Shown: piece after piece, positions 3,684 through 23,180 of the stretch
How positions within the stretch are numbered: position 1 is the stretch's first letter
How the letters are laid out: every line of letters begins with the position of its first letter
Origin: a virus
Lineage: Duplodnaviria; Caudoviricetes
Strand: one strand, 5' to 3'
Virus record (IMG/VR): IMGVR_UViG_3300009183_000045
DNA length: 64,000 nt
Program-made: the position numbers and the translations under genes
Notes under the pieces: model-generated
Told to the model about the DNA's origin: nothing
Database searches by the model: none
The model's input: only the letters and a program-made list of their open reading frames with translations

Positions 3684-3684
3684 T

Positions 3685-5840: not shown

Positions 5841-5844
5841 GCAA

Positions 5845-6897
5845 TTAAGCCTGACGTATTTTGTCAATTGTATTTGGTGACATGGCTTTATACAAAAGAC
5901 CCTTTTCTAAAAATTGAATAGGAACTCCCTGCTTAATTAAAGCAATTCCTATATAAGTGGCTCTCGGCGAAATAATAGCCTTAATACCCAATTCTACTAT
6001 TGTATCTCGTGTTTTCTTAACAGTTTCAAGCCAGGATTCTACTGTTGGAACTTTTTGACCAGCATTATCCCATTGAGGTGAAGAAATTCCTGGGTAACCA
6101 GCAACATGAGATTCTAATCCATCATCATACGGCATTTCAATAAAAAAGAAACGATCCAGCGTTGCGGCATCTATCTGAACTCTGCCTACATATCCACTGG
6201 TTGCTCCTAAACCAAAAGTGTTAGCACATGCAATAACCACAAAATCTGCATGGCGTTTAACTGCTCTGTCAGGAAACTCATTTGAATCATTGGCCAACGC
6301 ACTATTAAGTACCGCCAAAACATTAGCATTGCCGTTGTCTATTTCATCGAGACAAAATATACCACCATTTTCATAGGCCTGCCTAAAACTAGTAGACCTA
6401 TAAACACCCTGGGCGTCCATATATCCCAAGAGATCTGTTTTAGTAGTTTGACTACACACACTTAAGGCAGCATATGGTAGATTCAATTTAGCAGCAGTAG
6501 CGGCAGCTAAGGTAGATTTTCCGCTTCCAGCCGGCCCCACAAGCCACACATGACAACGAGCATTTAATACTTTTGTAACAAGGGGAAATAAATAGTGATG
6601 ACGAACTTTGTCTGGTTTAATCTCCAAAGTAGCCGCCAAAGGTGAAGACACTTCTTTAATAATTTCTTTAATAAGAGGATCTTCTTCCTTTGCCTTCTTA
6701 ATAAGTTCTTGTATTCTCAATTCTTCTCTTTGTTTATGTAAATCTTCTACATCTCTAGATCGAACTATGTGAATATTTGCTCTAAGTATTTGTTGTTCCG
6801 GTGTCAAAGTGGCGGTAAACTGATCACTTATTTCATGCATCAATTTACTTTTTTCTTTAATCAATTCATCAAGTTGTTTTATTGTATAATTTTCCAT
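5845..6897 (-). CDS. MoxR/CobS-like AAA+ ATPase
   Basis: Walker A GPAGSGKS, Walker B FCLDEIDN, ANTFGLG...YVGRVQIDAATLDRF and ISPRA motifs typical of phage CobS-like ATPases; N-terminal coiled coil. Confidence 0.85.
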   Translation of the reverse strand: MENYTIKQLDELIKEKSKLMHEISDQFTATLTPEQQILRANIHIVRSRDVEDLHKQREELRIQELIKKAKEEDPLIKEIIKEVSSPLAATLEIKPDKVRHHYLFPLVTKVLNARCHVWLVGPAGSGKSTLAAATAAKLNLPYAALSVCSQTTKTDLLGYMDAQGVYRSTSFRQAYENGGIFCLDEIDNGNANVLAVLNSALANDSNEFPDRAVKRHADFVVIACANTFGLGATSGYVGRVQIDAATLDRFFFIEMPYDDGLESHVAGYPGISSPQWDNAGQKVPTVESWLETVKKTRDTIVELGIKAIISPRATYIGIALIKQGVPIQFLEKGLLYKAMSPNTIDKIRQA

Positions 6898-6953: not shown

Positions 6954-7931
6954 TCATATTAATTCAAAATAATTAGGTTTTATGTTAAAACTCAGTCCCT
7001 CATTATAACTAGTTATGTTAATGTTGTTAATCATGAGCTTGGTTCTGCCTATTAAGTGCAAATACAGATGTTCGGTTTTAATGCCCCGCTCGTCCTGAAT
7101 TCTAAATAATTTTCCTTTTTGATAAGAAAAATACTGGTTGGTGTAATTTTTAATATTATTTTCTTCAAAATGTCTTGGTATGAAAACATCTTTATAAGAA
7201 GCATTTTCTGCGGGGTTAAACAAATCACACATTTCACCGTTTTCCGTCAACTTATAAAATTTATAAGTTGGAATCAACGTAGAATACACCTTTACAGTGC
7301 CCTGTGACCACCCTTCACAAGTTAAAAGATGTTTATGATTTTTGTTAATAAGTTCATCTTTATGTTTATTTAAACTAAGGTTTAAATAATTTTTATGCCC
7401 ATTTTCAGGCCAAACACCAATATTTGTGAGAATTTGTTTAATAAACCCATCATTTTTATATAGACAAAAATGCCCTCTAGAACCTATAAAATTATAGTTT
7501 TTATCCATTAAAGGTTGTATTATATTTTCAATATCACCCATTATGGTATCATTATCAAAATAACCACAATATTCATACCCCTCTAAGTCTTTTTTAAAAA
7601 TGTCATCAAAATAACACCTATAATCGGCAAATTTATACATTGGAGTTTTTGCTTTAAATACAGTTTCTTTTTCTCTAACGTTTAAAAGCAAAGGATCCGG
7701 GATATCTAAATCAAACCAATCTTTTAAAGTAGCAGTTAACATGGGATTTAAATCTTCAGCAGTTAAAAATTTATCTATTACATTAGAAGGTAGTTCCGGT
7801 TTATTTTTTATGTCATTGATAAACAAAAAGTCTATATTCTTATTTTGTGCCAAGCTGTACAAAAATAAATTAAAAAACGGATGCAGTTGTCCGTGCATGT
7901 GAAATATTAGACATATTTTATTTTTTTTCAT
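6954..7931 (-). CDS. DUF6625-like putative glycosyltransferase
   Basis: KICLIFHMHGQLHPFFNLFLYSL..NKNIDFLFI, YKFADYR, YCGYFDNDTIMGDI, GHFCLYKN; start reassigned to ATG 7931 just past the upstream stop. Confidence 0.65.
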   Translation of the reverse strand: MKKNKICLIFHMHGQLHPFFNLFLYSLAQNKNIDFLFINDIKNKPELPSNVIDKFLTAEDLNPMLTATLKDWFDLDIPDPLLLNVREKETVFKAKTPMYKFADYRCYFDDIFKKDLEGYEYCGYFDNDTIMGDIENIIQPLMDKNYNFIGSRGHFCLYKNDGFIKQILTNIGVWPENGHKNYLNLSLNKHKDELINKNHKHLLTCEGWSQGTVKVYSTLIPTYKFYKLTENGEMCDLFNPAENASYKDVFIPRHFEENNIKNYTNQYFSYQKGKLFRIQDERGIKTEHLYLHLIGRTKLMINNINITSYNEGLSFNIKPNYFELI

Positions 7932-7938
7932 ATTGGAT

Positions 7939-8940
7939 TTATAACAAACTTTGTATTTTTTTGAGTACATCCTCTTTTCTGAGTTTAAAATTTGCACAAG
8001 TAGGATCCGAGGCTCTGGCTTTATTAGTGGGAGTAAAATTTTCATAACCTTCAAGGCCACTATAGGCCATATTCATCCCCTTTGCTGTGCGTTGACTGCA
8101 CTGTAAAGCTCCGTTCTTAGGAGATACAAATAGTATTTTAGCTTTGTTTGGGTTGCAGTATATTTGGTTTGTACTTCCTGTACCGCCGATAACCATTACA
8201 AATTTTGCGTTTCTGAATAGTTGTACTTGTTCTATATAAGGCATTCCGGTTAATGTAATTTTTCTAATTGGTATATCGTTTTCATTTAAAAACTGTAGTA
8301 TTTCTTCTTGATTTAGCAAAAGCCTGCAATCGGAGTCATCCCTGCCTACATATATAAAATCTGTTGGGTTCTCTTCAGGAATTAAGTATTTTTCTAATTT
8401 TTCTGAAAAATAGGATAAAGGTAGGCACCCAGCCGTGGATGTTTTGGTTGAAATTACAAGATTTTCTTTTGTAGTATATAGAACATCACGTTCCGCAAAA
8501 ATTAGCTCATAACTATCTATATTAAAATTAAAAATGTGTCGCAGGACTTCTTTTAAAACGTTACCTGCTCTGCACCACGTCATAAGTATGGCAGTGTTCT
8601 CTGGTGTATATTTTTCAAGAACACCCAAATCTTTATAAAGCAAAAATTGCCCGATAGTCTCATGATGAAGATGCCAGTAATGGCTACCAGTATTTAACTG
8701 AAGCAAATTTTTATCACTCTTTATAGTATGTTTTGGAATTTTTTCCGGTATAGCTTCTTTTTTACTATCTTTAATCCTATTACCAGAACACGAACGTATT
8801 ATTTCTCCAAAAGAGTCTTTAGCTACATCTATATCCCCATCCATGGACATAAAAGATCCTTTAGGAAGCTCATATAAAAAATATGGATCTGGTTGAAAGT
8901 GCAAACTAGAGGATTTATCAAAGTATTTTGTTTTTTTCAT
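7939..8940 (-). CDS. Glycosyltransferase family 61 (DUF563)-like
   Basis: HYWHLHHE, IYVGRDDSDCRLLLNQEEI, MPYIEQVQLFRNAKFVMVIGGTGSTNQIYC match the GT61 core. Confidence 0.75.
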   Translation of the reverse strand: MKKTKYFDKSSSLHFQPDPYFLYELPKGSFMSMDGDIDVAKDSFGEIIRSCSGNRIKDSKKEAIPEKIPKHTIKSDKNLLQLNTGSHYWHLHHETIGQFLLYKDLGVLEKYTPENTAILMTWCRAGNVLKEVLRHIFNFNIDSYELIFAERDVLYTTKENLVISTKTSTAGCLPLSYFSEKLEKYLIPEENPTDFIYVGRDDSDCRLLLNQEEILQFLNENDIPIRKITLTGMPYIEQVQLFRNAKFVMVIGGTGSTNQIYCNPNKAKILFVSPKNGALQCSQRTAKGMNMAYSGLEGYENFTPTNKARASDPTCANFKLRKEDVLKKIQSLL

Positions 8941-8945
8941 AATGT

Positions 8946-9740
8946 TTAATAGGTCTGTCTTAAAAAGCCGTTGTATAGATTAACGCAGTATTTGTATTCT
9001 AGCTCATGCTTTTCATTAAGAAAACTACCGTAGTTTTTAATGTGAGGGTTTGTTAATTTTCTACTTTCATTAAGGTATATTTTAAAATGATAGGGTTTAG
9101 GTCCGTGGAAATGAATTAAATAGGCACTTTCATTTATGCCCCAATAAGGTTTCCAATTTATTTCATCTGATATTTTTTGATGTTTATAAAATTCATTTAA
9201 TGCTCCTTGATCTGTCGCTACAAATTTAAATTGTTTGGAAATTACAAAATCATAAAATTCCTGATATGTATCAAGCATATTTTTGGTATTACACCACATT
9301 ACACCGGAGTTGAACATCTTTACATCATTTTGATTAAATTCTCCAGTGGCTGCTATGGTTTCTGGAGTAAGTTTCAATAAAAAATCTGTAGGATCTCTGG
9401 TAAAAATAACGTCACAGTCTGTATACAAATAATACTCTATATCCAAGTTTAGCTGTTTAATTATTAAAGGTATATCTATGCGCAAAAAGGCCCCATAAAA
9501 AGTTTTGTGAGCAACCTCTTCAACCATTTCTGTTATTTTATTTTTAAAAGAAGATTCGTGTAATATTACAGTCACTCCATTTTCTTTTAGAAAATTAATG
9601 AATTCTTTATTATCACCATCATATAAGCAGTAAGCATTAAAATTGTAACTCAATGAACTTAGAACTGCAACTTTAGCCATGTCCATAAAGGCCCCGGACC
9701 TATTTTCATTCAAACAAAAAAACCAATTTATTTTTTTCAT
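8946..9740 (-). CDS. Glycosyltransferase family 8-like
   Basis: FLRIDIP, LYTDCDV (DxD), FNSGVM, DQGALN, NWKPYW, IHFHGPKP. Confidence 0.8.
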   Translation of the reverse strand: MKKINWFFCLNENRSGAFMDMAKVAVLSSLSYNFNAYCLYDGDNKEFINFLKENGVTVILHESSFKNKITEMVEEVAHKTFYGAFLRIDIPLIIKQLNLDIEYYLYTDCDVIFTRDPTDFLLKLTPETIAATGEFNQNDVKMFNSGVMWCNTKNMLDTYQEFYDFVISKQFKFVATDQGALNEFYKHQKISDEINWKPYWGINESAYLIHFHGPKPYHFKIYLNESRKLTNPHIKNYGSFLNEKHELEYKYCVNLYNGFLRQTY

Positions 9741-10522
9741 AACAATTTTTTAACTTTTTCTACATATTTAAGAGCTAGGTCATCATAGACATCATTTTTA
9801 TCATATGTATCAAACATTTCTATAGGCCTTTTTTCATTAACAGTGGCTCTTCCTCTTCGTCTTTTTTCTATCCAGTCTTCATAAGATCTGTTAAAATAAT
9901 GATTAACTCTTATTTTATTTGCTATTGATTTTTCTATTCTACCTTCTTGAGTTTCATCTATTAAATCGCCGTTTTCATTTACTATTCCTTTGGTGGTAGA
10001 AAACATATGAGGTGTCATATAACCTTTTATTTCATTGGGTTTAACTATTACTTTTACATGAGTATTAGGATGCCAGTCATCACGAGCTCTGTATAAAAAA
10101 TTTTCTAAACAAGTACCAGGTTTTCTTAATATATTTCCGGAAGAACCGTATATACGCCAGCTGACACCCAGCCCGGAATAATTTTTATAATCTTCTAGAA
10201 AAGTCCTTAAATCTGTTGGTTCTTCTGGCATGAAATATTCATCTGCATCACAATATATCATCCATTCAGTGTTGTTTCTTCCGTAATTTTTATAAGAAAC
10301 TTGATAAGCATAACCCTGTCTATCTGGGCTTGGTGAATCAAAATCTATTAAAAGTATATCATCTCGGAAAGATAGATCATTTATTTTATCTTCTGTGTCA
10401 TCAGTACTCTTATCATTAAAAACATAAAATTTTTCAACGCCAAGGGTCTTGTAATAGGTCAACCATTCCTGGATGTAATGAGATTCGTTTTTAACACAGG
10501 TTGTAAGAGAAAGATATTCCAT
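9737..10522 (-). CDS. GT-A glycosyltransferase (family 2/92-like)
   Basis: CVKNESHYIQEWLTYY, YVFNDKSTD, WMIYCDADEYF, KVIV and INHY-like RVNHYF motifs. Confidence 0.8.
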   Translation of the reverse strand: MEYLSLTTCVKNESHYIQEWLTYYKTLGVEKFYVFNDKSTDDTEDKINDLSFRDDILLIDFDSPSPDRQGYAYQVSYKNYGRNNTEWMIYCDADEYFMPEEPTDLRTFLEDYKNYSGLGVSWRIYGSSGNILRKPGTCLENFLYRARDDWHPNTHVKVIVKPNEIKGYMTPHMFSTTKGIVNENGDLIDETQEGRIEKSIANKIRVNHYFNRSYEDWIEKRRRGRATVNEKRPIEMFDTYDKNDVYDDLALKYVEKVKKLL

Positions 10523-13751: not shown

Positions 13752-14384
13752 ATGAAATTAGCAGTAGTAGGCACTCAGTGCATAGGCAAAAGCACTTACA
13801 TTAAAGATTTTTTAAATAAGTGGAAAATGTATACAACTCCTGAAAAAACATACAGAGATGTAGTCAAAGAAAAAAACATACCGATTAACAGATTAGGAGA
13901 TGAAGAATCACAACAAATTATATTAGACTTTCTGATTGATCAGGCCATGTCTTGTTCTAAAACTGAAAATGTAATATTCGATCGTTGTATATTAGACAAT
14001 CTAGCATACTCTTCCTGGCTTCATCTTAATGATAAAGTATCAGAAAAATTTTTAGACAAGTCCCGACTATTGGTAAGAGAAACTTTAAAGATGTTTGACA
14101 TCATTTTCTTTTTGCCTATTACAAAGATGTCACCAGTTGCTTTAGTTGAAGACGGTGTGAGAGACACAGATCCCGTATATAGGGAAGAAATAGACAACAT
14201 ATTTAAAGCTTTCTTAAAGTCCTATCATCAAGAAGACGGGAGAGTGTTTCCTAAAGGTGACAGTCCCCCGATTATAGAAATTTACGGAAGTCCAGAACAG
14301 CGCTTGTCTTTGACCGCTTTATACCTTAATGAAGAAGGTAAAGCCTTTGGTGAAGAACAAAGTCTTATATCTGAACTATATTAA
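13752..14384 (+). CDS. P-loop NTPase, NadR/AAA_28 nucleotide-kinase-like
   Basis: KLAVVGTQCIGKST Walker A, IFDRCILDNLAY, DIIFFLP, DGVRD...YREEID. Confidence 0.75.
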   Translation: MKLAVVGTQCIGKSTYIKDFLNKWKMYTTPEKTYRDVVKEKNIPINRLGDEESQQIILDFLIDQAMSCSKTENVIFDRCILDNLAYSSWLHLNDKVSEKFLDKSRLLVRETLKMFDIIFFLPITKMSPVALVEDGVRDTDPVYREEIDNIFKAFLKSYHQEDGRVFPKGDSPPIIEIYGSPEQRLSLTALYLNEEGKAFGEEQSLISELY

Positions 14385-14399
14385 TGGTAAATAAAAGAT

Positions 14400-15377
14400 A
14401 TGAATTTATTTAATTCTCTTTATACTGAGCAATTGGAAGAAATGGCAAGATCCTCAGATGTTGCAGATTTTGGAAGTGTGCCAGAAGACTTCCCCAGCAA
14501 AGCAGTCCCGAGCAGAGGAACAGCTAATCGTTTTGGCAGGCATCAAAATTCAGATGTCCAACCATTCTTTCAAGCAGTTGTGCAGGACTTCCTATCTAGA
14601 GATAATAAGAAAATTACATATGCAGAAGTTTCAACAGCTATTAAAAACATTTTACTAAAAGGCAAAGAACGCGGAGGAATGGGCATGGGACCAACTTTTG
14701 CTGATAAATGGACTCAGCATTTATCAGATGTCTTGTTTAAATTATTAAAAGGAGTTAATGCAGCTTCAAAGGCACCAGACAGTAATCCTGCAATTACAAA
14801 TGATTCATCAGATAAATCTCCTATTAATGTGGCACCGGAAGCATCCACAGAACCATCGGGAGAAGAACCTTCAGGAGAAGAGGCAGAAACAGAAGGTACT
14901 CCAGAATCAGAAGAGTCTGATGAAGAACACGTTGAAGGAGAACAAGAATCTCCTTCCGCAGATAAAGACTTGGAGGCCACTGCTGAATTAAACTTGAACC
15001 CTGATGAAGAAACTTTGTTGGATGTAATTAAAAATTTAGGAGGTAATGAAGTTTCTAATAAACAAATTTTGGCGGATTCTTCGACCCCTTTCAAATTAAG
15101 AGATGATCCTTCTAAATTGAGAGAAGTTTTAGGAAAAATGGCCCGAGAAGGCCTTATTAGCAGAGGCGACACCGGCTGGTCCATCAAAGAAAAAGAATCT
15201 GCTGATTCTGAAGCCGTTTTTGATAGAGAAGAAGGAGGAGAAGATTATGGTGCCAAAGACACCATATCTAAATATGCATCTCATTACGGAGATAAGCAAG
15301 AATTCGGGTCACAATTTGAGAATTATGACATTATGAAATCTTTTGTAGATGTCTTTAAGGCAAAAAGTCGTGAGTAA
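14400..15377 (+). CDS. Acidic hypothetical protein with a possible C-terminal winged helix
   Basis: E/S/P-rich linker; LLDVIKNLGG...LREVLGKMAREGLISRGDTGWSI resembles a wHTH; TAAATA at 14388-14393. Confidence 0.65.
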   Translation: MNLFNSLYTEQLEEMARSSDVADFGSVPEDFPSKAVPSRGTANRFGRHQNSDVQPFFQAVVQDFLSRDNKKITYAEVSTAIKNILLKGKERGGMGMGPTFADKWTQHLSDVLFKLLKGVNAASKAPDSNPAITNDSSDKSPINVAPEASTEPSGEEPSGEEAETEGTPESEESDEEHVEGEQESPSADKDLEATAELNLNPDEETLLDVIKNLGGNEVSNKQILADSSTPFKLRDDPSKLREVLGKMAREGLISRGDTGWSIKEKESADSEAVFDREEGGEDYGAKDTISKYASHYGDKQEFGSQFENYDIMKSFVDVFKAKSRE

Positions 15378-15404
15378 TACTTAAAAATCCGTTATACTGG
15401 TTAC

Positions 15405-16364
15405 ATGAGGGCTCTACCGGGAACTTATGTTTTAAGCAAATTCTATACCTTAGCAGGAGAACCTTCTTTTCGTAAATTTGACGGCAATTATAATGCCTCT
15501 TGTCCAATATGTCGTGAAGGTAAGAGCTGGTTGAAAAAGAAAAGACTTTTCTTCTATCCTTCAACCAGCTCTTTTTATTGCTTCAATTGCAATAAATCAT
15601 GGAATGCCTGGAGATGGATCACTGAATCCTCTGGTCTTACTAGAGAAGAGATTGAAATAGAAGCATTCAATGGCAACACCTCAACAGATGTCACTGATCA
15701 TATAGGATTAGTTAAACAAATTCGCAAAGAAAAACCAAATCTTCCTCATGATTCAGTTAATTTGAGTGATTTACAACAACAAAAATTTTATAGATCTTCT
15801 AATCACTTTAATAATGCTCTTGAATACTTAAAAAGTAGAAAATTAGATGTAGCAATCAACCGAAGTGTTAATTTTTATATAAGTTTAACAGACCACTTTC
15901 ATAAAAATAGGTTATGTATTCCCTATTTTGATCGCAATCGTAAAATAGTATTCTATCAAACAAGATCTTTAGACGGTTCAGAACCTCGTTATTTAAATAA
16001 AATAGGATATGACAAAACTGTTTTTGGTATAGACAGAGTTGATAGTGAGTTGGATAAAATTTTTCTATTTGAAGGACCTATTGATGCCATGTTTGTAAAG
16101 AATGGAGTATCTTTAGCCGGCCTTTCCCTCACCAATACCCAAGAGAAACAATTATCAGAATTTCCTTTTCATGACAAAATATGGGTATTAGACAATCCAA
16201 GAATAGACAAGGCCTCCAAAGAGAAGCTTTTTAGCTTGTTAAGCACAAAACAAAAGGTATTCCGGTGGCCTCTCGACAAGCCCTATAAAGATTTCAATGA
16301 ATGGGCGGTTAAAGAAGGAATCAACGAAATACCTATTGATTTTATTTTAAATTCTTTATACTAA
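15405..16364 (+). CDS. gp61: DNA primase (T4 gp61-like)
   Basis: Zn ribbon CPICREG...CFNC, RLCIPYF, FYQTRSL, TOPRIM FEGPIDAMF, VLDN, KDFNE. Confidence 0.9.
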   Translation: MRALPGTYVLSKFYTLAGEPSFRKFDGNYNASCPICREGKSWLKKKRLFFYPSTSSFYCFNCNKSWNAWRWITESSGLTREEIEIEAFNGNTSTDVTDHIGLVKQIRKEKPNLPHDSVNLSDLQQQKFYRSSNHFNNALEYLKSRKLDVAINRSVNFYISLTDHFHKNRLCIPYFDRNRKIVFYQTRSLDGSEPRYLNKIGYDKTVFGIDRVDSELDKIFLFEGPIDAMFVKNGVSLAGLSLTNTQEKQLSEFPFHDKIWVLDNPRIDKASKEKLFSLLSTKQKVFRWPLDKPYKDFNEWAVKEGINEIPIDFILNSLY

Positions 16365-16936
16365 CCACCAACCTGAGTTTGTTCAAAATCTCTTTGTTTT
16401 TTGGGTGCCATAATAATGAAAGAGTTAAGAACTTCTTTCAACTTTTCAATTTCACCAGCAATGCGAGTAATACTGTCGGAGGCCTTACGAGTGACTCCGC
16501 GTAATAAAGAACCCGGCCGGTCTTCTGCTGCAAGTATTTTGTGCAAGGACTGGCTGTCAGGGTTGTTCATGAAGTCTGCAAAATCATCTAATTTCTTGGA
16601 CCATTCTCTTATTGCCGTGATAGCATTGGCGGTTACATTAGGATCAGTGCCTTCTGTGTCAAAATTATCCCCTGGAGTTTCTTTTTCTAAAGAATCACCA
16701 AAATCTTTTTGATTTTGGTCTGGTGTAAAATCTTCTGGAGTCTTTGGATCCACCGCTTGGGCGGCGGCGGCCACATCCCCTTCGGCTTCTCTTACTAAGT
16801 GAGATATAAAACTTTTCAAAAACGGAACATATGATTCATCATACTCGCAGCTTGCCTGATTAGCTTTTAGAATTCTTGCAACCTCTTTGGCATGCACATT
16901 TGAATTATTTTTCGTGTTTTTGATTGAATTCTTCAT
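16361..16936 (-). CDS. Hypothetical protein, late promoter upstream
   Basis: 191-aa ORF; minus-strand TAAATA at 16949-16954; HLVREAE segment followed by an acidic linker. Confidence 0.65.
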   Translation of the reverse strand: MKNSIKNTKNNSNVHAKEVARILKANQASCEYDESYVPFLKSFISHLVREAEGDVAAAAQAVDPKTPEDFTPDQNQKDFGDSLEKETPGDNFDTEGTDPNVTANAITAIREWSKKLDDFADFMNNPDSQSLHKILAAEDRPGSLLRGVTRKASDSITRIAGEIEKLKEVLNSFIIMAPKKQRDFEQTQVGG

Positions 16937-16958
16937 TGATTTATAGTATATTTACCTC

Positions 16959-17702
16959 ATGGACAGTACAAATACATTGAAGTCTTGTGTAGTTTTATTT
17001 AGCGGAGGCATGGACAGTACCGTTGTACTGCATCATGCATTAGCCAATTATGATAAAGTGTATGCTTTAGCTATTGATTATGGGCAACGTAATATTAGAG
17101 AATTAACAAATGCAGAAGATTATCTTACCAGTTACATTTTAAAATCTTCATATGCAGAAAAAATCAAATATTCACGCTTGCCCCTTCCAGTTAAGCTATT
17201 GAATTTTAATTCAGCATTAACAAATGATGAGATAGAGGTGCCTAAAATGAAAGAGGTTATTGGAGATCCTCAAAATAATGCTTATGTACCCAATCGAAAT
17301 ATGATATTTTTATCATTGGCCGTTGGAATGGCAGAGAGTGTGGGTGCAACTCACGTACTATACGGAGCAGCAAAAGCAGATGATACATCAGGGTTCTGGG
17401 ATTGTACAGCTGACTTTAGAAATTATCTAAATACCATTTTATCCTTAAATCGTAGGAATTTAATAGAGATTAAAACACCTCTAATAGATAAAACAAAAAA
17501 AGAAATTATAGAATACGGTATTGAATTAGGAGTTGAGTTTGCACTGACGAGGACATGTTACACAGAACACGAAAAATCCTGTGGAGAGTGTCCTAGTTGT
17601 TCAGCAAGAATTGCAGGGTTTATTCACTCCAAAAAAATTGATCCTCTAAAATATTCTAGAGATATACCGTGGCAAAATTGGAATTGTGAACCATTATATT
17701 AA
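16959..17702 (+). CDS. queC: 7-cyano-7-deazaguanine synthase QueC
   Basis: PP-loop FSGGMDS, IDYGQRN, YVPNRNMIFLS, DCTADF, TPLI...K, Zn site TCY...CGECPSCSARI. Confidence 0.93.
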   Translation: MDSTNTLKSCVVLFSGGMDSTVVLHHALANYDKVYALAIDYGQRNIRELTNAEDYLTSYILKSSYAEKIKYSRLPLPVKLLNFNSALTNDEIEVPKMKEVIGDPQNNAYVPNRNMIFLSLAVGMAESVGATHVLYGAAKADDTSGFWDCTADFRNYLNTILSLNRRNLIEIKTPLIDKTKKEIIEYGIELGVEFALTRTCYTEHEKSCGECPSCSARIAGFIHSKKIDPLKYSRDIPWQNWNCEPLY

Positions 17703-17705
17703 GAT

Positions 17706-18347
17706 ATGTGTGCAATTAGTGGATCTAACAATTTAGAAAAGGCGTTTGCTCTTTATAAACTTAATTTACAAAGAGGTGCCCAGTCCTCGGGTATGCTAGC
17801 AGTTGGCTCCAGAGGATCCAATGTAAGCAGAATAGCAAATACATATGATGAGGATTATATATCTCATTTTAAAAAACAATTTGCTCAAAGCCCTTTCAAC
17901 TATCATTATTTTTTATTCCATTCCAGGGCTCCTACAAATAGTACAGTAACAACCTGGAGCCAAGAAACTACACACCCGTTTGCGTCTTCCAGTGGCCCAG
18001 ATTATCTCGTAGCACATAATGGAATTATAACAAATTTTTCTTCTTTTGAAGAAAGTAAACATCTAACAATAGATTCTCAAATAATTCCAGAACATCTATC
18101 GAAAACTCAAAACATTGTTGAAACATTTTCAAAATACGAAGGATTGTTTACCTGTTGGATAGTAAACAGGGATAGAATACAATTAGTTAAAGCGGGCAGT
18201 TCTCTATGGATGGATGAAAATTCCTTTTCTTCTTCCAAGTTTGAAGGTGCAGAATGTGTGGAAGATGATGGTGTTATATTTGATTATAAAGACGGAAAAT
18301 TTGAAAAGAGTGGAACCTTTCCGTACACCAACACTTATTTTATATGA
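17706..18347 (+). CDS. Class II (Ntn) glutamine amidotransferase
   Basis: Catalytic Cys2 (MCAISG), RG..SSG, FHSRAPT, THPF, AHNGII, IDSQII. Confidence 0.85.
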   Translation: MCAISGSNNLEKAFALYKLNLQRGAQSSGMLAVGSRGSNVSRIANTYDEDYISHFKKQFAQSPFNYHYFLFHSRAPTNSTVTTWSQETTHPFASSSGPDYLVAHNGIITNFSSFEESKHLTIDSQIIPEHLSKTQNIVETFSKYEGLFTCWIVNRDRIQLVKAGSSLWMDENSFSSSKFEGAECVEDDGVIFDYKDGKFEKSGTFPYTNTYFI

Positions 18348-19042
18348 AAAAAGTAACTGCAATTATTGCAACAGAAGCCAAGTCAATGCAAGAATTTGAA
18401 AAACGTCCAATTTTTAAATCTCTACAGAGACATTATGACTCTAAAGATCTTTTTACTTTGAATAAATTTGATTTTGTTGTCGTAAAAAACAACAAAGAAG
18501 GTTTGTCTAAGGTTTATAACAAATTTTTAGAAGACCCAAAGTATTCAAAGGATATACTTTTGTTTGTACATGATGATGTTGAACTAGAAGATGTGTTTTT
18601 AATTGAAAAATTGAGAGAATCTCCTTATGAGGTAACTGGTCTGGCAGGAACAAAAAAGGCAGACTTGAGTAAACCTTCTGGTTGGCATTTAATGAGTGGC
18701 AAAGAAGATTGGGTTGGGGAAGTGGCTCATGCAGAAATTAAAGAGGGCAAAAAAAATGTTTGGACAACTAGTTTTGGATCCACAGATTCCAGAGCCCTTT
18801 TGATAGACGGACTTTTTATTGCAGTAGACGTCAAAGCTTTAAGGGATAAATCTGTTAAATTTAATGAAAAGTTTGAATTTCATCATTATGATTTAGCCTT
18901 CTGTCTTGAGTGTAATAAAGCAAAAGTAAAAATTGGTGTGTTGCCTATAAGAGCAATCCACCACGGTCTAGGTGATAGTATGCTTTCTGAAGATTGGAAG
19001 ATCAGTGCTGAAATATTCAAGCAAACCTACGGTACAAATTAA
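18344..19042 (+). CDS. GT-A glycosyltransferase (Glyco_tranf_2_5-like)
   Basis: LSKVYN, LFVHDDV, GLAG, IDGLFIAV, FHHYDLAFCL, IHHGLG; ATGA-coupled to the GATase. Confidence 0.75.
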   Translation: MKKVTAIIATEAKSMQEFEKRPIFKSLQRHYDSKDLFTLNKFDFVVVKNNKEGLSKVYNKFLEDPKYSKDILLFVHDDVELEDVFLIEKLRESPYEVTGLAGTKKADLSKPSGWHLMSGKEDWVGEVAHAEIKEGKKNVWTTSFGSTDSRALLIDGLFIAVDVKALRDKSVKFNEKFEFHHYDLAFCLECNKAKVKIGVLPIRAIHHGLGDSMLSEDWKISAEIFKQTYGTN

Positions 19043-19064
19043 AAACAAACTATATAATAAAAAT

Positions 19065-19658
19065 ATGAGCAGATCTAGAATTTATAATGATGAAGACTAT
19101 GACGGATCTTTGATCCACGAACGATTTGGTTACAGAATCTTTCGTAAAGAATACAATCCACTTGGTGTCCTTTATATTACCAGAGGCAATATGGACGTTA
19201 AAGATAATCTGATTGATTTAGAGGATAAACTATCTGATGATTTTATTTATTCTGATGATGCATTGAGCATTTGCTGGGAGATTCCTAACATGAATGCTAT
19301 CGGAGCTGTATTCTTTCAGCGTCTATTTGTGCAAGAAATTGCTAACCTTTTCAGAACAGACAAGTTTGGTCTTTATGATGTTGAAGTAAATGGAGATGAT
19401 TTAATGCTTCGCAAAAAGGGCATGGGGGAGAATAATAGAGAAGAATGGGGCAAAGCTAGTGTAAGCATTACCAAAGTAACAGACACAGTTGCCTTGGGTC
19501 ATTTTGGAATCAATATTAGTGCGGGTGAAAGAGCACCTAGTTTTGCATTTTCTCTTTTCTTAACAGATGAGTTGGTTGAAAAGTTGGCTAGCAAAATTGA
19601 TGACATTTTTTATGAAATTGTTCGGGATTGTTTTACAGCAACCACCAAAGTAATTTAA
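19065..19658 (+). CDS. DUF366-like protein (biotin/lipoate-protein-ligase fold)
   Basis: YDGSLI, RGNMDV..LIDLED, IYSDD, FQRLF, GDDL, KASVSI, HFGINI match my recollection of the DUF366/COG2029 pattern; start set at ATG 19065. Confidence 0.7.
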   Translation: MSRSRIYNDEDYDGSLIHERFGYRIFRKEYNPLGVLYITRGNMDVKDNLIDLEDKLSDDFIYSDDALSICWEIPNMNAIGAVFFQRLFVQEIANLFRTDKFGLYDVEVNGDDLMLRKKGMGENNREEWGKASVSITKVTDTVALGHFGINISAGERAPSFAFSLFLTDELVEKLASKIDDIFYEIVRDCFTATTKVI

Positions 19659-19662
19659 TATT

Positions 19663-19743
19663 ATGATAGTAACCCTATATACCCTACTAGCAGAACTCTC
19701 TATAACAGTGGCACAACTATTTTGTGAATTTTTTAATATTTGA
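19663..19743 (+). CDS. Possible 26-aa hydrophobic peptide
   Basis: MIVTLYTLLAELSITVAQLFCEFFNI; fills the gap between DUF366 and gp62. Confidence 0.3.
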   Translation: MIVTLYTLLAELSITVAQLFCEFFNI

Positions 19744-19754
19744 AATAAAATTTA

Positions 19755-20144
19755 ATGGTTAAGAAAAAGTATAATGATGATCTATTTGTGTACCTTAACT
19801 GGATCCTTAAAAAACCAGTTAAGGAATTACAAGTTCAAAACACTCCATCTACCTACATAACTAATAGGTGGCTGTCTATGGTAGATGCCAGTACAGCCAA
19901 TATTATTAATGTAACATTTAATAGGTGGTTGATAAACAAAGCATTTAGTTCAGATAATTTAATGGCAGGAAAATTCTATAGAACATTAATGCCTTTTAAT
20001 AATAAAAGAATTTCTTATATTAAGAAACCCACAGCAGACAGTTCCAAAGATTGTGAAGACATTTCCAATCTAGCCAAAAATTTAGAAATGTCACAAAAAG
20101 AGATAGAGATGTATAATCAAACCCTTGATTTATTGAAGTTTTAA
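19755..20144 (+). CDS. gp62: Clamp-loader small subunit (T4 gp62-like)
   Basis: LNWILKK, YITNRWLS...NIIN, FYRTLMP..KRISYIKK, LEMSQKEIEMY pattern and length. Confidence 0.6.
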   Translation: MVKKKYNDDLFVYLNWILKKPVKELQVQNTPSTYITNRWLSMVDASTANIINVTFNRWLINKAFSSDNLMAGKFYRTLMPFNNKRISYIKKPTADSSKDCEDISNLAKNLEMSQKEIEMYNQTLDLLKF

Positions 20145-20157
20145 TTTAAATAATTTT

Positions 20158-20544
20158 ATGATAGATAGACCCAGTAATTTAGAAGATCGTATCGGAGGAA
20201 AGGTTCAAATTGAACACTATGTTGGCGGCGAATTTGAAATGGAAGATTGGTTTTTAGATAAGGTATTGGATAATATTCTTATGGTTCAGTATGTGGATGT
20301 TAATGATGCAGGCACTGAAGTCAAAAGAGGCAGTATTTGGGTACCACTTGGTGCAGTTCAGCACACCTGGAGAGTTGCTCGAGTGATCAAAGCGGGTCCT
20401 GATTGTAAGCTAGTTGAGGAAGGCAATTACGTAGTATTTCCTAATGACAGAGGATTACAGGTAGCCAATCTCAATGGTCTTAAGAATGTAGCATTTGTTA
20501 ACGAAGATCGCATCTTCGGCATCTGCAGCCCCAAACCCGAATAA
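20158..20544 (+). CDS. GroES-like co-chaperonin (gp31-like)
   Basis: VLDNILMVQ, mobile loop TEVKRGSIWVP, ARVIKAGP..V.EGNYVVF, FVNEDRIFG. Confidence 0.75.
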   Translation: MIDRPSNLEDRIGGKVQIEHYVGGEFEMEDWFLDKVLDNILMVQYVDVNDAGTEVKRGSIWVPLGAVQHTWRVARVIKAGPDCKLVEEGNYVVFPNDRGLQVANLNGLKNVAFVNEDRIFGICSPKPE

Positions 20545-20545
20545 A

Positions 20546-20929
20546 GTGAATTTATCTTCTTCTGGTCTTGCTTCTCTTCTACAAGCAAATGTTGTAGAAT
20601 TAAAATTTGTAAGGAAACATCCTATTAAAAATAGACCAACAACCAGAAGAATGATAGCATCTTTAAATTCTTCTATATTAGATTCTGATTTAGGCAGAAC
20701 AATTTTAAACTTCAAGCCACCAATTGGTACACCTCCTTATACCGCCAGTAATTACAATTTATTAGTAGTCTTTGACTTGTTTATGCAAGATTGGAGAGCT
20801 ATACCAATAGATAAAACTGAAGTAATAAGAGTATTACCTTCAGACCCAGTTTCAGATTTCTGGGAGTATTTTTCAGTCTCTCTTGCTAAAATGTCCTCTT
20901 CACAAAAAGCAGCTTTCATGGATCAATAA
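20546..20929 (+). CDS. WYL_2/DUF2693-like SH3-fold protein
   Basis: VVELKFVRK...RRMIASLN...VFDLFMQDWRAIP; in-frame GTG at 20546 preferred over the overlapping ATG at 20495. Confidence 0.5.
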   Translation: MNLSSSGLASLLQANVVELKFVRKHPIKNRPTTRRMIASLNSSILDSDLGRTILNFKPPIGTPPYTASNYNLLVVFDLFMQDWRAIPIDKTEVIRVLPSDPVSDFWEYFSVSLAKMSSSQKAAFMDQ

Positions 20930-21285
20930 TGAATATTAACAACACCAACTTAGAAGAAGCCTGTAAATTTCTTTTACAAAAAAATATATCACTAGAAATT
21001 AACAATAAAATTTTTAAGTCTGGAAAAATGTTATTGTTTTACCAGAAAAATTTCTTTTTAACTTTTGTATTAAATTCAAATAAAAAGGAAAGAGATAAGG
21101 TAGAAATACCTATACCCTATGACACAGAAATGCACATAGAAGATGATCTAATTTATTTTGATTACAGAATTAAAACTTTAAGTAAATTGGCCCCTGACAT
21201 GGAAAATTATTTAAAAATATATCCAACCAAAGTAATCGGAAACAAATACTGGGATACCATATTAACAATTAATGCAAACAATTAA
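20929..21285 (+). CDS. Hypothetical protein
   Basis: 118-aa ORF coupled to its neighbours. Confidence 0.65.
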   Translation: MNINNTNLEEACKFLLQKNISLEINNKIFKSGKMLLFYQKNFFLTFVLNSNKKERDKVEIPIPYDTEMHIEDDLIYFDYRIKTLSKLAPDMENYLKIYPTKVIGNKYWDTILTINANN

Positions 21286-21532
21286 TTCTATTTTAATTTA
21301 TAGTGTTTTTTCTGGTTCTTTTTATGATCTGCCAGAATCTGATGCAAGCTTACTAGAAGTTGGCCATCTTCCGTTAACCGGAAAGCCTAAAAAATGTAAT
21401 AAGTGTTACAACAGGGGATACAGCGGAAGAGATTCTGTCAATCTCACCTATTCCCCGTGTTTGTGCGTGCATAAAGTGTTAAATTTTGATATTCTTAAGA
21501 AGATTGAAAACAAACACACCAAACTTTCTTGA
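21272..21532 (+). CDS. Small Zn-finger-like protein
   Basis: CNKCYNRG...CLC. Confidence 0.55.
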   Translation: MQTINSILIYSVFSGSFYDLPESDASLLEVGHLPLTGKPKKCNKCYNRGYSGRDSVNLTYSPCLCVHKVLNFDILKKIENKHTKLS

Positions 21533-23180
21533 TTACTTTCCTTCAGCCAAAGGTGAGACGCCTCGCGGACAACAAATTGAAGGACTGAATGCAATTAGAA
21601 AGGCATTTGATGCCGGTAAAAAATATGTCATAGCCCGTCTTCCTACGGGGTCTGGTAAATCTCATATGGCAACAGCCATTGCTCGTTCCTCCAGACCAGT
21701 AAACCCCCAATGTAGAGGTTTACTGGAAAGTTATGAAGCGTTTCGCAAAGATAAAAACGGAACATGGCTCCACGAAAACACCTTTGAGGAAGCTCCTGCA
21801 TTTGGAGCTTATATTCTGACAATAACTAGATCATTGCAGGATCAATATTTGGACCTGTTTCCGGATCAATTAGCGGTTAAGGGACAAAACAATTACCAAT
21901 GTGCCGTTGATAAAAATTTAACCATTGATTTTGCGCCTTGCTTATTTACTCCAGAACTAAAACAAGAGTGTCTCAAATTAGACAGATGTCCGTATCACAA
22001 GGCCCGCAAAAACGCCATCGCCTCTCAAGATTCTGTGTTAAATTATAGGGTATTTTTTAATCTTCCCAAATTTCTTCAGAGAAGAGAATATATTATTTGT
22101 GATGAGGCCAAGGAGATAGAAAAAGAACTGGTGGGTCAATATTCAATTACACTTAATTATGCTCAATTACTAGCAGAAGAGATTTCTTTTAAAAAAATCA
22201 TATCAGACGACAGCGAGGAAGCTTTTTTGTGGCTACAGGATATTTTTCTACAGCTTAAAAATCAATGCGCAGACCTCAAGCATAAATTGTCGTTAATGAA
22301 TAATAAAGGAAGTGCATTAGAAGGCATTGTATATAAAACCGTACAGAGACTTGGAAAATTAAATAATTTATACAACTCGGTTTGGGATGTAGTGGACAAT
22401 TGGCATGAGTGTGAATATCTAGTAGAAAGCAAAGATGCCAAATCTGTCATTTTTGTTCCTTTTAATATCAAACCAATTGCTCAACGCATTTTTAGCAGAG
22501 CAGAAAAAATTATCCTCACGTCTGCAACAATCAGTGATCCAGAAGAATATGCTAAAAGCTTGGGTATTAAGAAGAGTGAATATGCAGTTGTAGACATATC
22601 TTCTATATTTGATCCTTTAAAATCACCCATCTACTGTTCTTCCAAGTATAGTCTGTCATTTAAAACCCTAGAAGCCAATCTTCCTAAGGTTATAGATATG
22701 GTATCAAAGATATGTGAGTTGCACAAGGGTCAGAAAGGACTAATTCACACACACACCAATCAGATTACAGAAGTAGTTCGGAGAAAATTAGGTAAAAACA
22801 AAAGATTTTTGTTCCGAGAGGTTGGTGTGTCTAATCAAGACATTATATCTGAACACCGAATCCGAGTAGACGAAGACACTGTTCTTGTAAGTCCTTCTCT
22901 CGACACAGGAGTGAGCTTAGATGATGACCTGGGTAGATTTCAAATCATTATTAAAGCCCCTTATCTGCCTTTGGGTTCTAAGAGAATCAAAAAAATGTTT
23001 GATAAAAGTCCTCGACATTACAGTATGTCTATGCTAGACACATTAATACAAATGTCTGGCAGGTGTACTCGTTCAAAAGACGACCATTCAGTCACTTATA
23101 TTCTTGATGGATCAGCGGTCAAGGCAATAACAACAAATAAAGATCATTTACCTAAATACTTTTTAGATAGATTTATGTAA
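21486..23180 (+). CDS. DinG/XPD(Rad3)-family SF2 helicase with Fe-S cysteines
   Basis: Q motif PRGQQ, PTGSGKS, four Cys (CAVD, APC, ECL, RCPY), IICDEA, LTSATI, GRFQIIIKAPY, QMSGRCTRSKDD. Confidence 0.88.
   Translation: MIFLRRLKTNTPNFLDYFPSAKGETPRGQQIEGLNAIRKAFDAGKKYVIARLPTGSGKSHMATAIARSSRPVNPQCRGLLESYEAFRKDKNGTWLHENTFEEAPAFGAYILTITRSLQDQYLDLFPDQLAVKGQNNYQCAVDKNLTIDFAPCLFTPELKQECLKLDRCPYHKARKNAIASQDSVLNYRVFFNLPKFLQRREYIICDEAKEIEKELVGQYSITLNYAQLLAEEISFKKIISDDSEEAFLWLQDIFLQLKNQCADLKHKLSLMNNKGSALEGIVYKTVQRLGKLNNLYNSVWDVVDNWHECEYLVESKDAKSVIFVPFNIKPIAQRIFSRAEKIILTSATISDPEEYAKSLGIKKSEYAVVDISSIFDPLKSPIYCSSKYSLSFKTLEANLPKVIDMVSKICELHKGQKGLIHTHTNQITEVVRRKLGKNKRFLFREVGVSNQDIISEHRIRVDEDTVLVSPSLDTGVSLDDDLGRFQIIIKAPYLPLGSKRIKKMFDKSPRHYSMSMLDTLIQMSGRCTRSKDDHSVTYILDGSAVKAITTNKDHLPKYFLDRFM

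What the first reader, a model, noticed from the sequence alone, without database searches (positions are those of the whole stretch)
16959..19658. queC - GATase - glycosyltransferase - DUF366 cluster: candidate new 7-deazaguanine hypermodification pathway
Seen: four co-oriented, tightly spaced genes (3-nt gap, ATGA overlap, 22-nt gap): an intact QueC, a class II amidotransferase with catalytic Cys2, a GT-A glycosyltransferase and a ligase-fold DUF366 protein, set among replication genes. Established: phages use QueC-type enzymes to make preQ0/G+/preQ1-type bases that protect DNA from restriction, and Gat-QueC fusions make archaeosine-type bases. Inference: a split QueC+Gat pair linked to a sugar transferase and an adenylating ligase could produce a glycosylated and/or acylated deazaguanine in phage DNA, a combination I do not recognise as described. 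folE, queD, queE and dpdA are not in this window.
Basis: partly seen in the sequence, partly recalled or inferred. Interest (0 to 1): 0.85.

Follow-up and report, generated by a model that had tools for sequence, protein, structure and literature searches.

The report
Deazaguanine DNA-modification genes with unexplained partners
Four adjacent genes in an uncultured freshwater T4-like phage belong to a known kind of system that swaps guanine in phage DNA for a 7-deazaguanine, but three of them (a separate glutaminase, a sugar transferase and a ligase-like DUF366 protein) always travel with the pathway here and are missing from every studied phage, so their chemistry, and perhaps the final base, is still undescribed.

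Summary

The rest of the pathway exists. Close relatives (one a 227-kb complete contig) carry FolE2, QueD, a divergent QueE and a DpdA3-type DNA transglycosylase, scattered through the replication module. Standard TGT and DpdA profiles miss this transglycosylase.

In 20 of 20 QueC-bearing relatives, QueC comes with the GATase–GT pair and a motif-intact DUF366. In 19 records without an intact DUF366, QueC is absent. GenBank phages, including the studied DpdA3 phages, gave no relevant match to any of the three.

Against a new sugar-bearing base: the GT persists in lineages that lost the whole pathway. Sister clades keep the same three genes alongside QueF and a formyltransferase (fdPreQ1 type).

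My reading is a new variant of a known DpdA3 system, with a split, glutamine-fed QueC. DUF366 is a real but unexplained partner, and the GT's role is open. Earlier reports of this scan described the same gene set on other DNA. A glycosylated or acylated deazaguanine remains possible (about 0.3).

The parts
16920..16952 (+). Sigma-70-like promoter candidates directly upstream of queC (TTGATT-16-TATAGT and TTGAAT-17-TATATT). No convincing + strand terminator lies inside the block.
   Evidence: Consensus scan only. Weak evidence, not tested.
16959..17702 (+). QueC, 7-cyano-7-deazaguanine synthase, a PP-loop ATPase of 247 aa
   Evidence: PF06508 at 6.6e-55; TIGR00364 equivalog at 166.9 bits, above its 150.3 cut-off; phrog_1550 at 6e-61. 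SGGMDS motif and Cys cluster present. 41 invariant columns in 21 phage homologues.
17706..18347 (+). Stand-alone class II (Ntn) glutamine amidotransferase, 213 aa; the proposed glutaminase partner of QueC
   Evidence: Matches to GATase_6/7 and the GlmS N-terminal domain. Cys2, R23-G24, H72..A75-P76-T77, N105-G106 and D123 are conserved. The Atlas model matches the Gat domain of 474-aa Gat-QueC fusions at TM 0.83. QueC is in the same record wherever the record is long enough to test.
18344..19042 (+). GT-A fold glycosyltransferase-like protein, 232 aa, HDD (DxD) motif; its start overlaps the GATase stop (ATGA)
   Evidence: PF13712 at 7.4e-9. Model pLDDT 94; fold matches to majastridin with UDP (2qgi), GalNAc-Ts and StrF. 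H76-D77-D78, H180/Y182/D183 and H206..D211 are invariant in 33 homologues.
19065..19658 (+). DUF366 protein, 197 aa, BirA/LplA/LipB-like ligase fold with all family motifs intact
   Evidence: PF04017 at 2.6e-17. Model matches 2ddz at TM 0.79, M. jannaschii MJ0805 at 0.76 and biotin/lipoate ligases at about 0.55. 48 invariant residues in 33 homologues, including LIDLED, GDD, KASVSI, GH and ATTK. These motifs are lost in copies from QueC-less phages.

Best explanation
The block is the QueC-centred part of a dispersed DpdA3-type 7-deazaguanine DNA-modification system in an uncultured freshwater T4-like myophage of about 200-230 kb. FolE2, QueD and a divergent QueE, encoded elsewhere in the replication module, make 7-carboxy-7-deazaguanine. 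QueC converts it to preQ0, taking its ammonia from the neighbouring stand-alone class II amidotransferase. That pair is a split version of the class II GATase plus PP-loop design of asparagine synthetase B and of Gat-QueC. A DpdA3 transglycosylase then exchanges guanine in phage DNA for the deazaguanine, probably at most or all G positions as in the studied DpdA3 phages. DUF366 is a genuine, conserved member of this system. It has a ligase-type fold that normally adenylates a carboxylate, and it most likely acts at or around the QueC step, on CDG or a close derivative. The reaction is unknown. The GT-A protein is tightly coupled to the GATase gene, but it also survives without the pathway, so I treat its role in the base chemistry as open. 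The window's clade lacks QueF and a DpdN-type formyltransferase, so the DNA base is expected to be at the preQ0/ADG/G+ level. Shown: the gene identities, the folds, the conserved linkage and the presence of the rest of the pathway in relatives. Inferred: every enzymatic step, the substrate of DUF366 and DNA as the target.
For: Gene identities and folds. The synteny primase-orf(-)-QueC-GAT-GT-DUF366-four small genes-helicase-gp15 is conserved in IMG/VR contigs. In relatives G001-G005, FolE2 is present in 4 of 5, QueD in 5 of 5 and a QueE-like gene in 5 of 5. The G001 QueE copy has five QueE equivalog models as its best hits, all below their cut-offs. [quoted passage not shown] It is present in G001-G005 and G009. 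PMC10516641 defines these proteins as DpdA3 and links them to complete G replacement. Co-occurrence: 14 further large records with intact DUF366 of two other subfamilies carry QueC in 12, QueD in 13 and DpdA3 in 9. All three are present in every record that is at least 88% complete. In 10 of 10 records examined, QueC..GAT-GT lies between uvsX and gp41, roughly 30 kb or more from DUF366. QueC is absent from 19 of 19 records without an intact DUF366. DUF366-like copies in those records have lost the family's invariant motifs or are split. Coexistence with QueF and a formyltransferase next to DpdA3 in G009 and the uvsX-gp41 group shows that preQ0 must be released there. Both are absent from G001-G005.
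Against: The window's own genome outside the window could not be read. Its DpdA3, folE2, queD and queE rest on relatives plus unverified first-stage notes. No experiment links any of these proteins to a reaction. A ligase has no obvious job in canonical preQ0 synthesis, which needs only QueC. The GATase is no closer in sequence to the 9g Gat-QueC Gat domain than to other class II GATases. The always-overlapping GAT-GT pair, the deep position of QueC-linked GTs in the GT tree and a sugar-nucleotide epimerase/dehydratase inserted between GAT and GT in some relatives hint that a sugar is part of the pathway after all.
Confidence: 0.5

Rival explanations
1. One reading: the GT-A enzyme and the DUF366 ligase decorate the deazaguanine, free or already in DNA, with a sugar and/or an acyl or aminoacyl group. 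The result would be a hypermodified 7-deazaguanine not yet described in DNA. One route would be N-glycosylation of an amidine or amide made by QueC plus GATase. Another would be amide formation on the CDG carboxylate followed by glycosylation.
For: QueC, GAT, GT and motif-intact DUF366 co-occur in 20 of 20 QueC-bearing records and move as units. GAT and GT always overlap. An NAD-dependent sugar-nucleotide epimerase/dehydratase lies between GAT and GT in L008-L010 (PF01370 at 5e-41). In QueC-less phages a DpdA-like gene sits directly upstream of GT-DUF366-like in 18 loci. Intact DUF366 is preceded by other glycosyltransferases or sugar-nucleotide genes where this GT is elsewhere. QueC-linked GTs occupy all the deep branches of the GT tree. 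None of the three genes gave a relevant match in GenBank phages, including the cultured DpdA3 phages. The window's clade has no QueF or DpdN, so nothing else tailors preQ0. There are chemical precedents in secondary metabolites: HuiG glycosylates a preQ0 derivative and RoyL ligates amines to AMP-CDG (bioRxiv 10.64898/2026.04.15.718813).
Against: GT homologues with all invariant residues persist in phages with no deazaguanine genes at all (groups B and D). The same three genes coexist with a complete fdPreQ1-type set (QueF, formyltransferase), where the C7 side chain is already spoken for. No acceptor hydroxyl is evident on preQ0, ADG or G+. No data exist on the DNA itself.
Confidence: 0.3
2. 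Only QueC and the GATase matter for the base. GT and DUF366 are resident genes of this genome position with unrelated jobs, for example glycosylation or acylation of a protein, a lipid or another small molecule. Their adjacency to queC reflects insertion of a queC-GAT cassette into a hot spot.
For: GT-(DUF366)-four small genes-helicase is a fixed backbone in 88 loci whatever lies upstream. GT survives loss of the pathway. DUF366-like genes sit at the same position in more distant T4-like phages. The window holds a separate island of glycosyltransferases at 6954-10522. An earlier report of this scan on other DNA judged the GT a bystander.
Against: Intact-motif DUF366 tracks QueC genome-wide even when the two lie tens of kilobases apart, and it decays where QueC is lost. 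The GT moved together with QueC-GAT to the uvsX-gp41 site in another subclade.
Confidence: 0.12
3. The pathway does not target DNA. It boosts preQ0/queuosine for tRNA of the host or the phage, or it makes a free 7-deazapurine metabolite.
For: Phage-encoded preQ0 genes without a recognisable DpdA have been read this way. The standard TGT and DpdA profiles found nothing in the relatives. First-stage notes mention tRNA-related genes elsewhere in the genome.
Against: A clear DpdA3 homologue is present in every sufficiently complete relative, next to the DNA polymerase gene. DpdA3 is the signature of DNA modification in the three phages where it was measured (PMC10516641).
Confidence: 0.05

Closest known systems
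[quoted passage not shown]
   Same: Relatives of the window encode a DpdA3 homologue (40% and 34% identity to the immuto and CP220 proteins) plus GTP cyclohydrolase, QueD, QueE and QueC. The phages are myophages and the genes sit among replication genes. Sister clades also have QueF and a formyltransferase beside DpdA3.
   Different: GenBank phages, these included, gave no hit to this GT or DUF366 and only irrelevant PA11-type hits to the GATase. FolE2 replaces FolE type I. The genes are dispersed one by one. The window's clade lacks QueF, DpdN and any recognised tailoring enzyme.
Gat-QueC fusion of Enterobacteria phage 9g and Crenarchaeota (archaeosine, dG+); Hutinet et al., Nat Commun 2019, PMC6884629
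   Same: A class II amidotransferase is combined with QueC. The Atlas model of the window's GATase superposes on the Gat domain of 474-aa Gat-QueC proteins at TM 0.83.
   Different: Here there are two separate genes, sometimes separated by other genes. Sequence similarity to the 9g Gat domain is marginal. The pair coexists with QueF in sister clades, which argues for preQ0 and not G+ as the product there. The transglycosylase is DpdA3, and phrog_887, the family that 9g's DpdA matches, finds nothing in the relatives.
Asparagine synthetase B architecture: N-terminal class II GATase plus PP-loop ATP pyrophosphatase (textbook knowledge, not tested here)
   Same: The same two domain types, and the same chemistry as QueC's first half-reaction: a carboxylate is adenylated and then amidated with glutamine-derived ammonia.
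   Different: Separate polypeptides. No complex could be demonstrated.
DUF366 / COG2029 (PDB 2ddz PH0223, M. jannaschii MJ0805) and the BirA/LplA/LipB ligase superfamily
   Same: Pfam membership above the cut-off and fold TM 0.79 to 2ddz. The next-best folds are biotin- and lipoate-protein ligases. A conserved G-K-A-S-V-S strand resembles, from memory, the lysine strand of LplA.
   Different: No function is known for DUF366 and no paper in the held library mentions it. TM to the ligases is only about 0.55 and sequence identity 10-15%. The Atlas's largest DUF366 cluster is 75% viral among members with a taxon on record.
Tailoring of 7-deazapurine natural products: HuiG (UDP-GlcNAc glycosylation in huimycin) and RoyL amide synthetases acting on AMP-CDG (bioRxiv 10.64898/2026.04.15.718813)
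   Same: The preQ0/CDG core genes are combined with a glycosyltransferase and/or a carboxylate-activating ligase.
   Different: Those are free metabolites of actinomycetes made without any nucleic-acid insertion enzyme. No homology between those enzymes and the phage GT or DUF366 was tested.
T4 alpha/beta-glucosyltransferases on 5-hydroxymethylcytosine
   Same: A T4-like phage with a sugar transferase encoded among replication genes.
   Different: The T4 enzymes are GT-B and need hmC. No ThyA-family hydroxymethylase exists in 10 relatives, and the GT here is GT-A.

Membership tests
QueC (7-cyano-7-deazaguanine synthase) | Score above the curated equivalog cut-off; PP-loop SGGxDS; C-terminal Zn-binding Cys cluster | tested here: met
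   TIGR00364 at 166.9 bits against a 150.3 cut-off and PF06508 at 6.6e-55. SGGMDS at residues 15-20 and C200/C208/C211/C214 are invariant in 21 homologues.
Class II (Ntn) glutamine amidotransferase | N-terminal catalytic Cys after Met; Arg, Asn-Gly oxyanion hole and Asp that bind glutamine; Ntn fold | tested here: met
   Met-Cys start, with R23-G24, HSRAPT, HNG and VDS conserved. The Atlas model (pTM 0.87) matches GlmS, PurF-like and Gat-QueC GATase domains at TM 0.8-0.84. Pfam scores are below the gathering cut-off.
Gat-QueC (archaeosine-forming fusion) | GATase and QueC fused in one polypeptide | tested here: not met
   Two ORFs separated by a stop and 3 nt. In other relatives they are separated by one or more genes.
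Gat-QueC (archaeosine-forming fusion) | Product is G+ (amidine) rather than preQ0 | not testable with these tools
   Indirect only: sister clades keep the pair together with QueF, which needs preQ0.
GT-A glycosyltransferase (GT2-like, PF13712) | GT-A Rossmann-like fold with a DxD metal and nucleotide-sugar site | tested here: met
   PF13712 at 36.1 bits against a 27 cut-off. Model pLDDT 94; TM 0.67-0.68 to majastridin with UDP. HDD is invariant. Donor and acceptor are unknown.
DUF366 (PF04017) | Pfam score above the cut-off and the fold of PH0223 (2ddz) | tested here: met
   63.3 bits against a 29.9 cut-off. Foldseek E 3e-12 and TM 0.79.
Biotin/lipoate protein ligase superfamily (BirA/LplA/LipB) | Shared catalytic-domain fold | tested here: met
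   98 PDB matches at E<=1e-3; below 2ddz, the listed top 50 are all biotin or lipoate ligases (one an engineered LplA). TM 0.5-0.58.
Biotin/lipoate protein ligase superfamily (BirA/LplA/LipB) | Acyl-adenylate formation using the conserved active-site lysine | not testable with these tools
   An invariant K130 in G-K-A-S-V-S is present. Its structural equivalence to the ligase lysine was not checked residue by residue.
DpdA3-type 7-deazaguanine DNA modification system | A DpdA3 transglycosylase encoded in the genome | tested here: inconclusive
   Met in relatives G001-G005 and G009 and in 9 of 14 further records. The window's own genome beyond the window could not be read. An unverified first-stage note reports a 269-aa TGT-like gene between gp43 and thyX 22.7 kb upstream, and it shares short words with the G001 protein.
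DpdA3-type 7-deazaguanine DNA modification system | GTP cyclohydrolase, QueD and QueE to make CDG | tested here: inconclusive
   Present in relatives, with QueE below every curated cut-off. None lies in the window. For the own genome there are first-stage notes only.
DpdA3-type 7-deazaguanine DNA modification system | A modified deoxyguanosine in virion DNA | not testable with these tools
   The phage is uncultured and known only from lake metagenomes.

The most novel reading that the evidence does not exclude
In this widespread clade of uncultured aquatic T4-like phages, the GT-A enzyme and the DUF366 ligase act on the deazaguanine inserted by DpdA3. The result would be a sugar- and/or acyl-bearing 7-deazaguanine: the first glycosylated purine analogue in any DNA and the first function for the DUF366 family.
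Probability: 0.3. Interest if true: 0.85.

Novelty: new variant of a known kind. Interest (0 to 1): 0.55.

Why it matters
7-Deazaguanine DNA modifications are a major way for phages to escape restriction and CRISPR, and eight derivatives are known. This work shows that a large, uncultured group of lake and marine T4-like phages carries the DpdA3 version of the system together with three conserved proteins that no studied phage has: a split glutaminase for QueC, a GT-A transferase and DUF366. The IMG/VR scans returned hundreds of matching loci.

There are two possible outcomes. These proteins may reveal how preQ0 synthesis is made independent of the host, through a glutamine-fed QueC and a role for DUF366. 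Or the proteins may make a ninth, decorated base. Both outcomes can be tested directly by co-expression and nucleoside mass spectrometry.

The work also shows that standard TGT and DpdA profiles miss DpdA3. 'No dpdA in the genome' calls based on Pfam alone are therefore unreliable.

Tried and rejected
- **Nucleotide search:** blastn of 14001-22000 against GenBank phages found no match.
- **Own genome:** it is not held. Walking out of the window with the look-up of encoding contigs failed because the public contigs start about 1 kb before the window.
- **Profiles that miss the transglycosylase:** Pfam TGT (PF01702) and the PHROG DpdA families phrog_887 and phrog_7068 found nothing in relatives. 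Only a protein search against DpdA3 phages did. PF04055 missed the QueE. FolE type I is absent.
- **Irrelevant tblastn hits:** the DUF366 hit in 'Microcystis phage MaAM05' lies among bacterial-looking genes. The GATase hits in Pseudomonas PA11-like phages belong to an amidoligase/ATP-grasp cluster without QueC.
- **Cellular context of DUF366:**
  - The scan with a distant alignment could not be run.
  - In a Paracoxiella chromosome the gene lies between transposases.
  - Distant family members turned out to be phage copies.
  - A clade-wide search could not be centred on a locus.
- **Literature:** no paper in the held library mentions DUF366, PF04017, COG2029 or MJ0805, and PH0223 appears only in an interaction table.
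- **Complex prediction:** Complex prediction on QueC with the GATase returned no verdict, score 0.01. This counts neither for nor against binding.
- **Expression:** no RNA holder is listed among the public runs.
- **T4-style glucosylation of hydroxymethyl-pyrimidines:** rejected, because no ThyA-family hydroxymethylase exists in 10 relatives.
- **preQ1-type products in the window's clade:** rejected, because G001-G005 have no QueF and no formyltransferase.
Full report
**1. Observation.**

The four ORFs are as described: 16959-17702, 17706-18347, 18344-19042 and 19065-19658. All lie on the + strand, with a 3-nt gap, an ATGA overlap and a 22-nt gap.

- **QueC.** It passes NCBI's equivalog cut-off (TIGR00364, 166.9 against 150.3 bits; PF06508 at 6.6e-55). 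It keeps the PP-loop and the Cys cluster.
- **GATase.** The second protein starts Met-Cys. Its profile matches to class II amidotransferases are weak. An alignment of 22 phage homologues nevertheless shows the full catalytic set conserved: Cys2, R-G, HSRAPT, HNG and VDS. The Atlas model superposes on GlmS, PurF-like and Gat-QueC GATase domains at TM 0.8-0.84.
- **GT.** The third protein is a GT-A protein (PF13712 at 7.4e-9). Its AlphaFold model has pLDDT 94. The best fold match is the UDP-binding protein majastridin, and an HDD motif is invariant.
- **DUF366.** The fourth protein is DUF366 (PF04017 at 2.6e-17). Its model (pLDDT 87) matches PH0223 (2ddz) at TM 0.79 and then biotin and lipoate protein ligases at about 0.55. 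The 'ligase fold' statement therefore holds.

The flanking genes are a DnaG-type primase, a helicase and a T4 gp15 homologue, so the window is a T4-like myophage. A sigma-70-like promoter candidate lies just upstream of queC, and there is no convincing internal terminator.

**2. The rest of the pathway.**

The window's genome is not held, and public contigs end about 1 kb before the window. I therefore used relatives. Twelve IMG/VR contigs encode DUF366 at 49-91% identity. Nine of them show the same local order over the whole block; three others are truncated or lack the QueC-GAT-GT part.

I searched the whole records of five relatives (G001 to G005). G001 is 227 kb and 100% complete by CheckV.

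- FolE2 is present in 4 of 5.
- QueD is present in 5 of 5.
- A QueE-like radical-SAM gene is present in 5 of 5. The G001 copy has five QueE equivalog models as its best hits, all below their cut-offs.
- Pfam TGT and two PHROG DpdA profiles found nothing.

First-stage notes on the same genome pointed to a short TGT-like gene between the polymerase and thyX. I tested the equivalent 285-aa gene of G001. [quoted passage not shown] It is 34% identical (2e-36) to its homologue in Campylobacter phage CP220. Cui, Hutinet and colleagues define these proteins as DpdA3, the subfamily associated with complete replacement of G (PMC10516641).

A profile of this family finds it in G001-G005 and G009. In G001 the genes are scattered among uvsX, gp41, gp32, thyX and polB.

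**3. Are the GT and DUF366 part of the pathway?**

I collected 80 loci by the GT (298 relatives in IMG/VR). I classified the neighbours with iterated profile searches and clustering. The GT always precedes the same four small genes and the helicase. Upstream, five states occur.

| Group | Local arrangement | What the whole records carry |
|---|---|---|
| A | QueC-GAT-GT-DUF366, or QueC-GT-GAT-DUF366 | Full pathway |
| A' | GAT-GT-DUF366 | QueC about 8 kb upstream |
| B | GT plus a DUF366-like gene | A 99% complete genome has only FolE2 |
| C | A DpdA-like gene (about 25% identical to DpdA3) directly upstream of GT-DUF366-like | A complete genome with terminal repeats has adjacent QueD-QueE but no QueC or FolE2 |
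| D | GT alone | No pathway gene in 9 partial records |

An alignment shows that only group A DUF366 proteins keep the family's invariant motifs: LIDLED..DDFIYSDDA, GDD, KASVSI, GH, AG.KAP.FA.S and ATTK. Group B and C copies carry deletions or substitutions at nearly all of them, and two loci hold split DUF366 ORFs.

Two other subfamilies of intact DUF366 are not next to queC. One gave 418 confirmed IMG/VR stretches and the other 69 loci. In 14 of their large records, QueC is present in 12, QueD in 13 and DpdA3 in 9. All three are present in every record that is at least 88% complete.

In all 10 records examined, QueC is followed by an overlapping GAT-GT pair between uvsX and gp41, after one or two opposite-strand genes in nine of them. 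This site lies roughly 30 kb or more from DUF366.

Overall, 20 of 20 QueC-bearing records have the GATase, this GT and an intact DUF366. None of 19 records without an intact DUF366 has QueC. These counts are not phylogenetically independent. They do span three subclades and two genomic arrangements.

**4. What speaks for and against a decorated base.**

For:
- The GAT-GT overlap is universal.
- QueC-linked GTs occupy all the deep branches of the GT tree, and groups B, C and D are nested among them. This suggests repeated loss of QueC-GAT.
- Some relatives carry a sugar-nucleotide epimerase/dehydratase between GAT and GT (PF01370 at 5e-41).
- Intact DUF366 is preceded by other glycosyltransferases or sugar-nucleotide genes, and once followed by queD, where this GT sits elsewhere.
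- GenBank phages gave no relevant match to any of the three genes. That collection includes the studied DpdA3 phages found.
- T4-style glucosylation of hydroxymethyl-pyrimidines is excluded: no ThyA-family hydroxymethylase exists in 10 relatives.

Against:
- GT homologues survive in phages without any deazaguanine gene.
- An earlier report of this scan prompted a further test. It showed that G009 and the uvsX-gp41 group also encode a bimodular QueF and a formyltransferase beside DpdA3. That is the fdPreQ1 design of the Flavobacterium phage.
- In those phages QueC plus GATase must deliver preQ0 to QueF. The common role of the GATase is therefore most simply ammonia supply to QueC, an asparagine-synthetase-B-like pairing. 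This follows from established knowledge of that enzyme and not from archaeosine formation.
- Any decoration shared by both kinds of phage would have to sit away from the C7 side chain.

The window's own clade (G001-G005) has neither QueF nor the formyltransferase. Its base should therefore be at the preQ0/ADG/G+ level unless GT and DUF366 change it.

**5. Verdict.**

The finding is real. It belongs to a known kind of system, DpdA3-type 7-deazaguanine DNA modification. Its conserved add-ons make it a new variant:
- a split, glutamine-fed QueC;
- DUF366 as a genuine but unexplained partner;
- a GT whose involvement is open.

I put 0.5 on this reading. I put 0.3 on true hypermodification by GT and DUF366, 0.12 on both being bystanders and 0.05 on a non-DNA target.

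Chemical precedents for glycosylation and for amide ligation on CDG exist only in actinomycete metabolites. No paper in the held library mentions DUF366.

The sequence occurs in freshwater and lake metagenomes from several studies.

Earlier reports of this scan met the same gene set on other DNA and reached similar conclusions about the GT. An earlier report that DUF366 accompanies QueC in cellular preQ0 operons could not be tested here.

A QueC-GATase complex prediction gave no verdict and is not used as evidence.

Noticed in passing
window 2412-5052: Two tandem full-length DUF1501 genes (PF07394 at 1e-110 and 9e-129) in a lytic T4-like phage. The region is more GC-rich (0.39-0.41) than its surroundings (about 0.32).
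   Followed up: no
window 6954-10522 (- strand): A separate island of sugar-related genes: DUF6625, GT61, a nucleotide-diphospho-sugar transferase and a GT2/GT92 protein. An AAA_5 (MoxR-like) ATPase and a DUF7192 protein lie next to it at 5055-6897.
   Followed up: no
L096:6213-8199 (record G008, 217 kb, terminal repeats) and 17 similar loci: QueC-less relatives carry a divergent DpdA-like gene (about 25% identical to DpdA3, with the PDV, PQG, HLLGMG and SSDS motifs) directly upstream of the GT and a motif-poor DUF366-like gene. QueD-QueE lie elsewhere, and there is no FolE2 or QueC. This would be a possible CDG-based variant.
   Followed up: partly
L046:8001-8543 (Candidatus Paracoxiella cheracis chromosome); L043, L045, L047, L048: DUF366 genes 42-48% identical to the phage protein occur in Coxiella-, Legionella- and Francisella-like Gammaproteobacteria. 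In the complete chromosome the gene lies between transposase genes, which suggests transfer between phages and these bacteria.
   Followed up: partly
L009:6269-7300 (also L008, L010, L061, L062): An NAD-dependent sugar-nucleotide epimerase/dehydratase (PF01370 at 5e-41) is inserted between the GATase and the GT inside the block. The same gene family appears upstream of the DpdA-like gene in two QueC-less loci (L095, L100).
   Followed up: partly
L124:6120-6836 and L124:8761-9465: GIY-YIG/NUMOD3 homing-endonuclease genes are inserted inside the block (between QueC and GT) and just after it (after DUF366) in one relative.
   Followed up: no
G009:C1:156613-159405 and the equivalent places in G031, G035-G037, G039-G041: A DpdA3, Formyl_trans_N protein and bimodular QueF cluster (the fdPreQ1 design) is present in sister clades that also keep GAT, GT and DUF366. 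It is absent from the window's closest relatives.
   Followed up: partly
L001 (MW495066.1, 'Microcystis phage MaAM05', 110480-122956): The only GenBank 'phage' record with a DUF366 hit carries glyS, mtgA, fabI and engB around it, and its recorded source is hospital wastewater. The stretch looks like bacterial DNA rather than a phage.
   Followed up: no
Atlas cluster of window 19065-19655: The largest DUF366 cluster in the ESM Atlas has 2368 members, 75% viral among those with a taxon on record. Pfam describes the family as archaeal.
   Followed up: no
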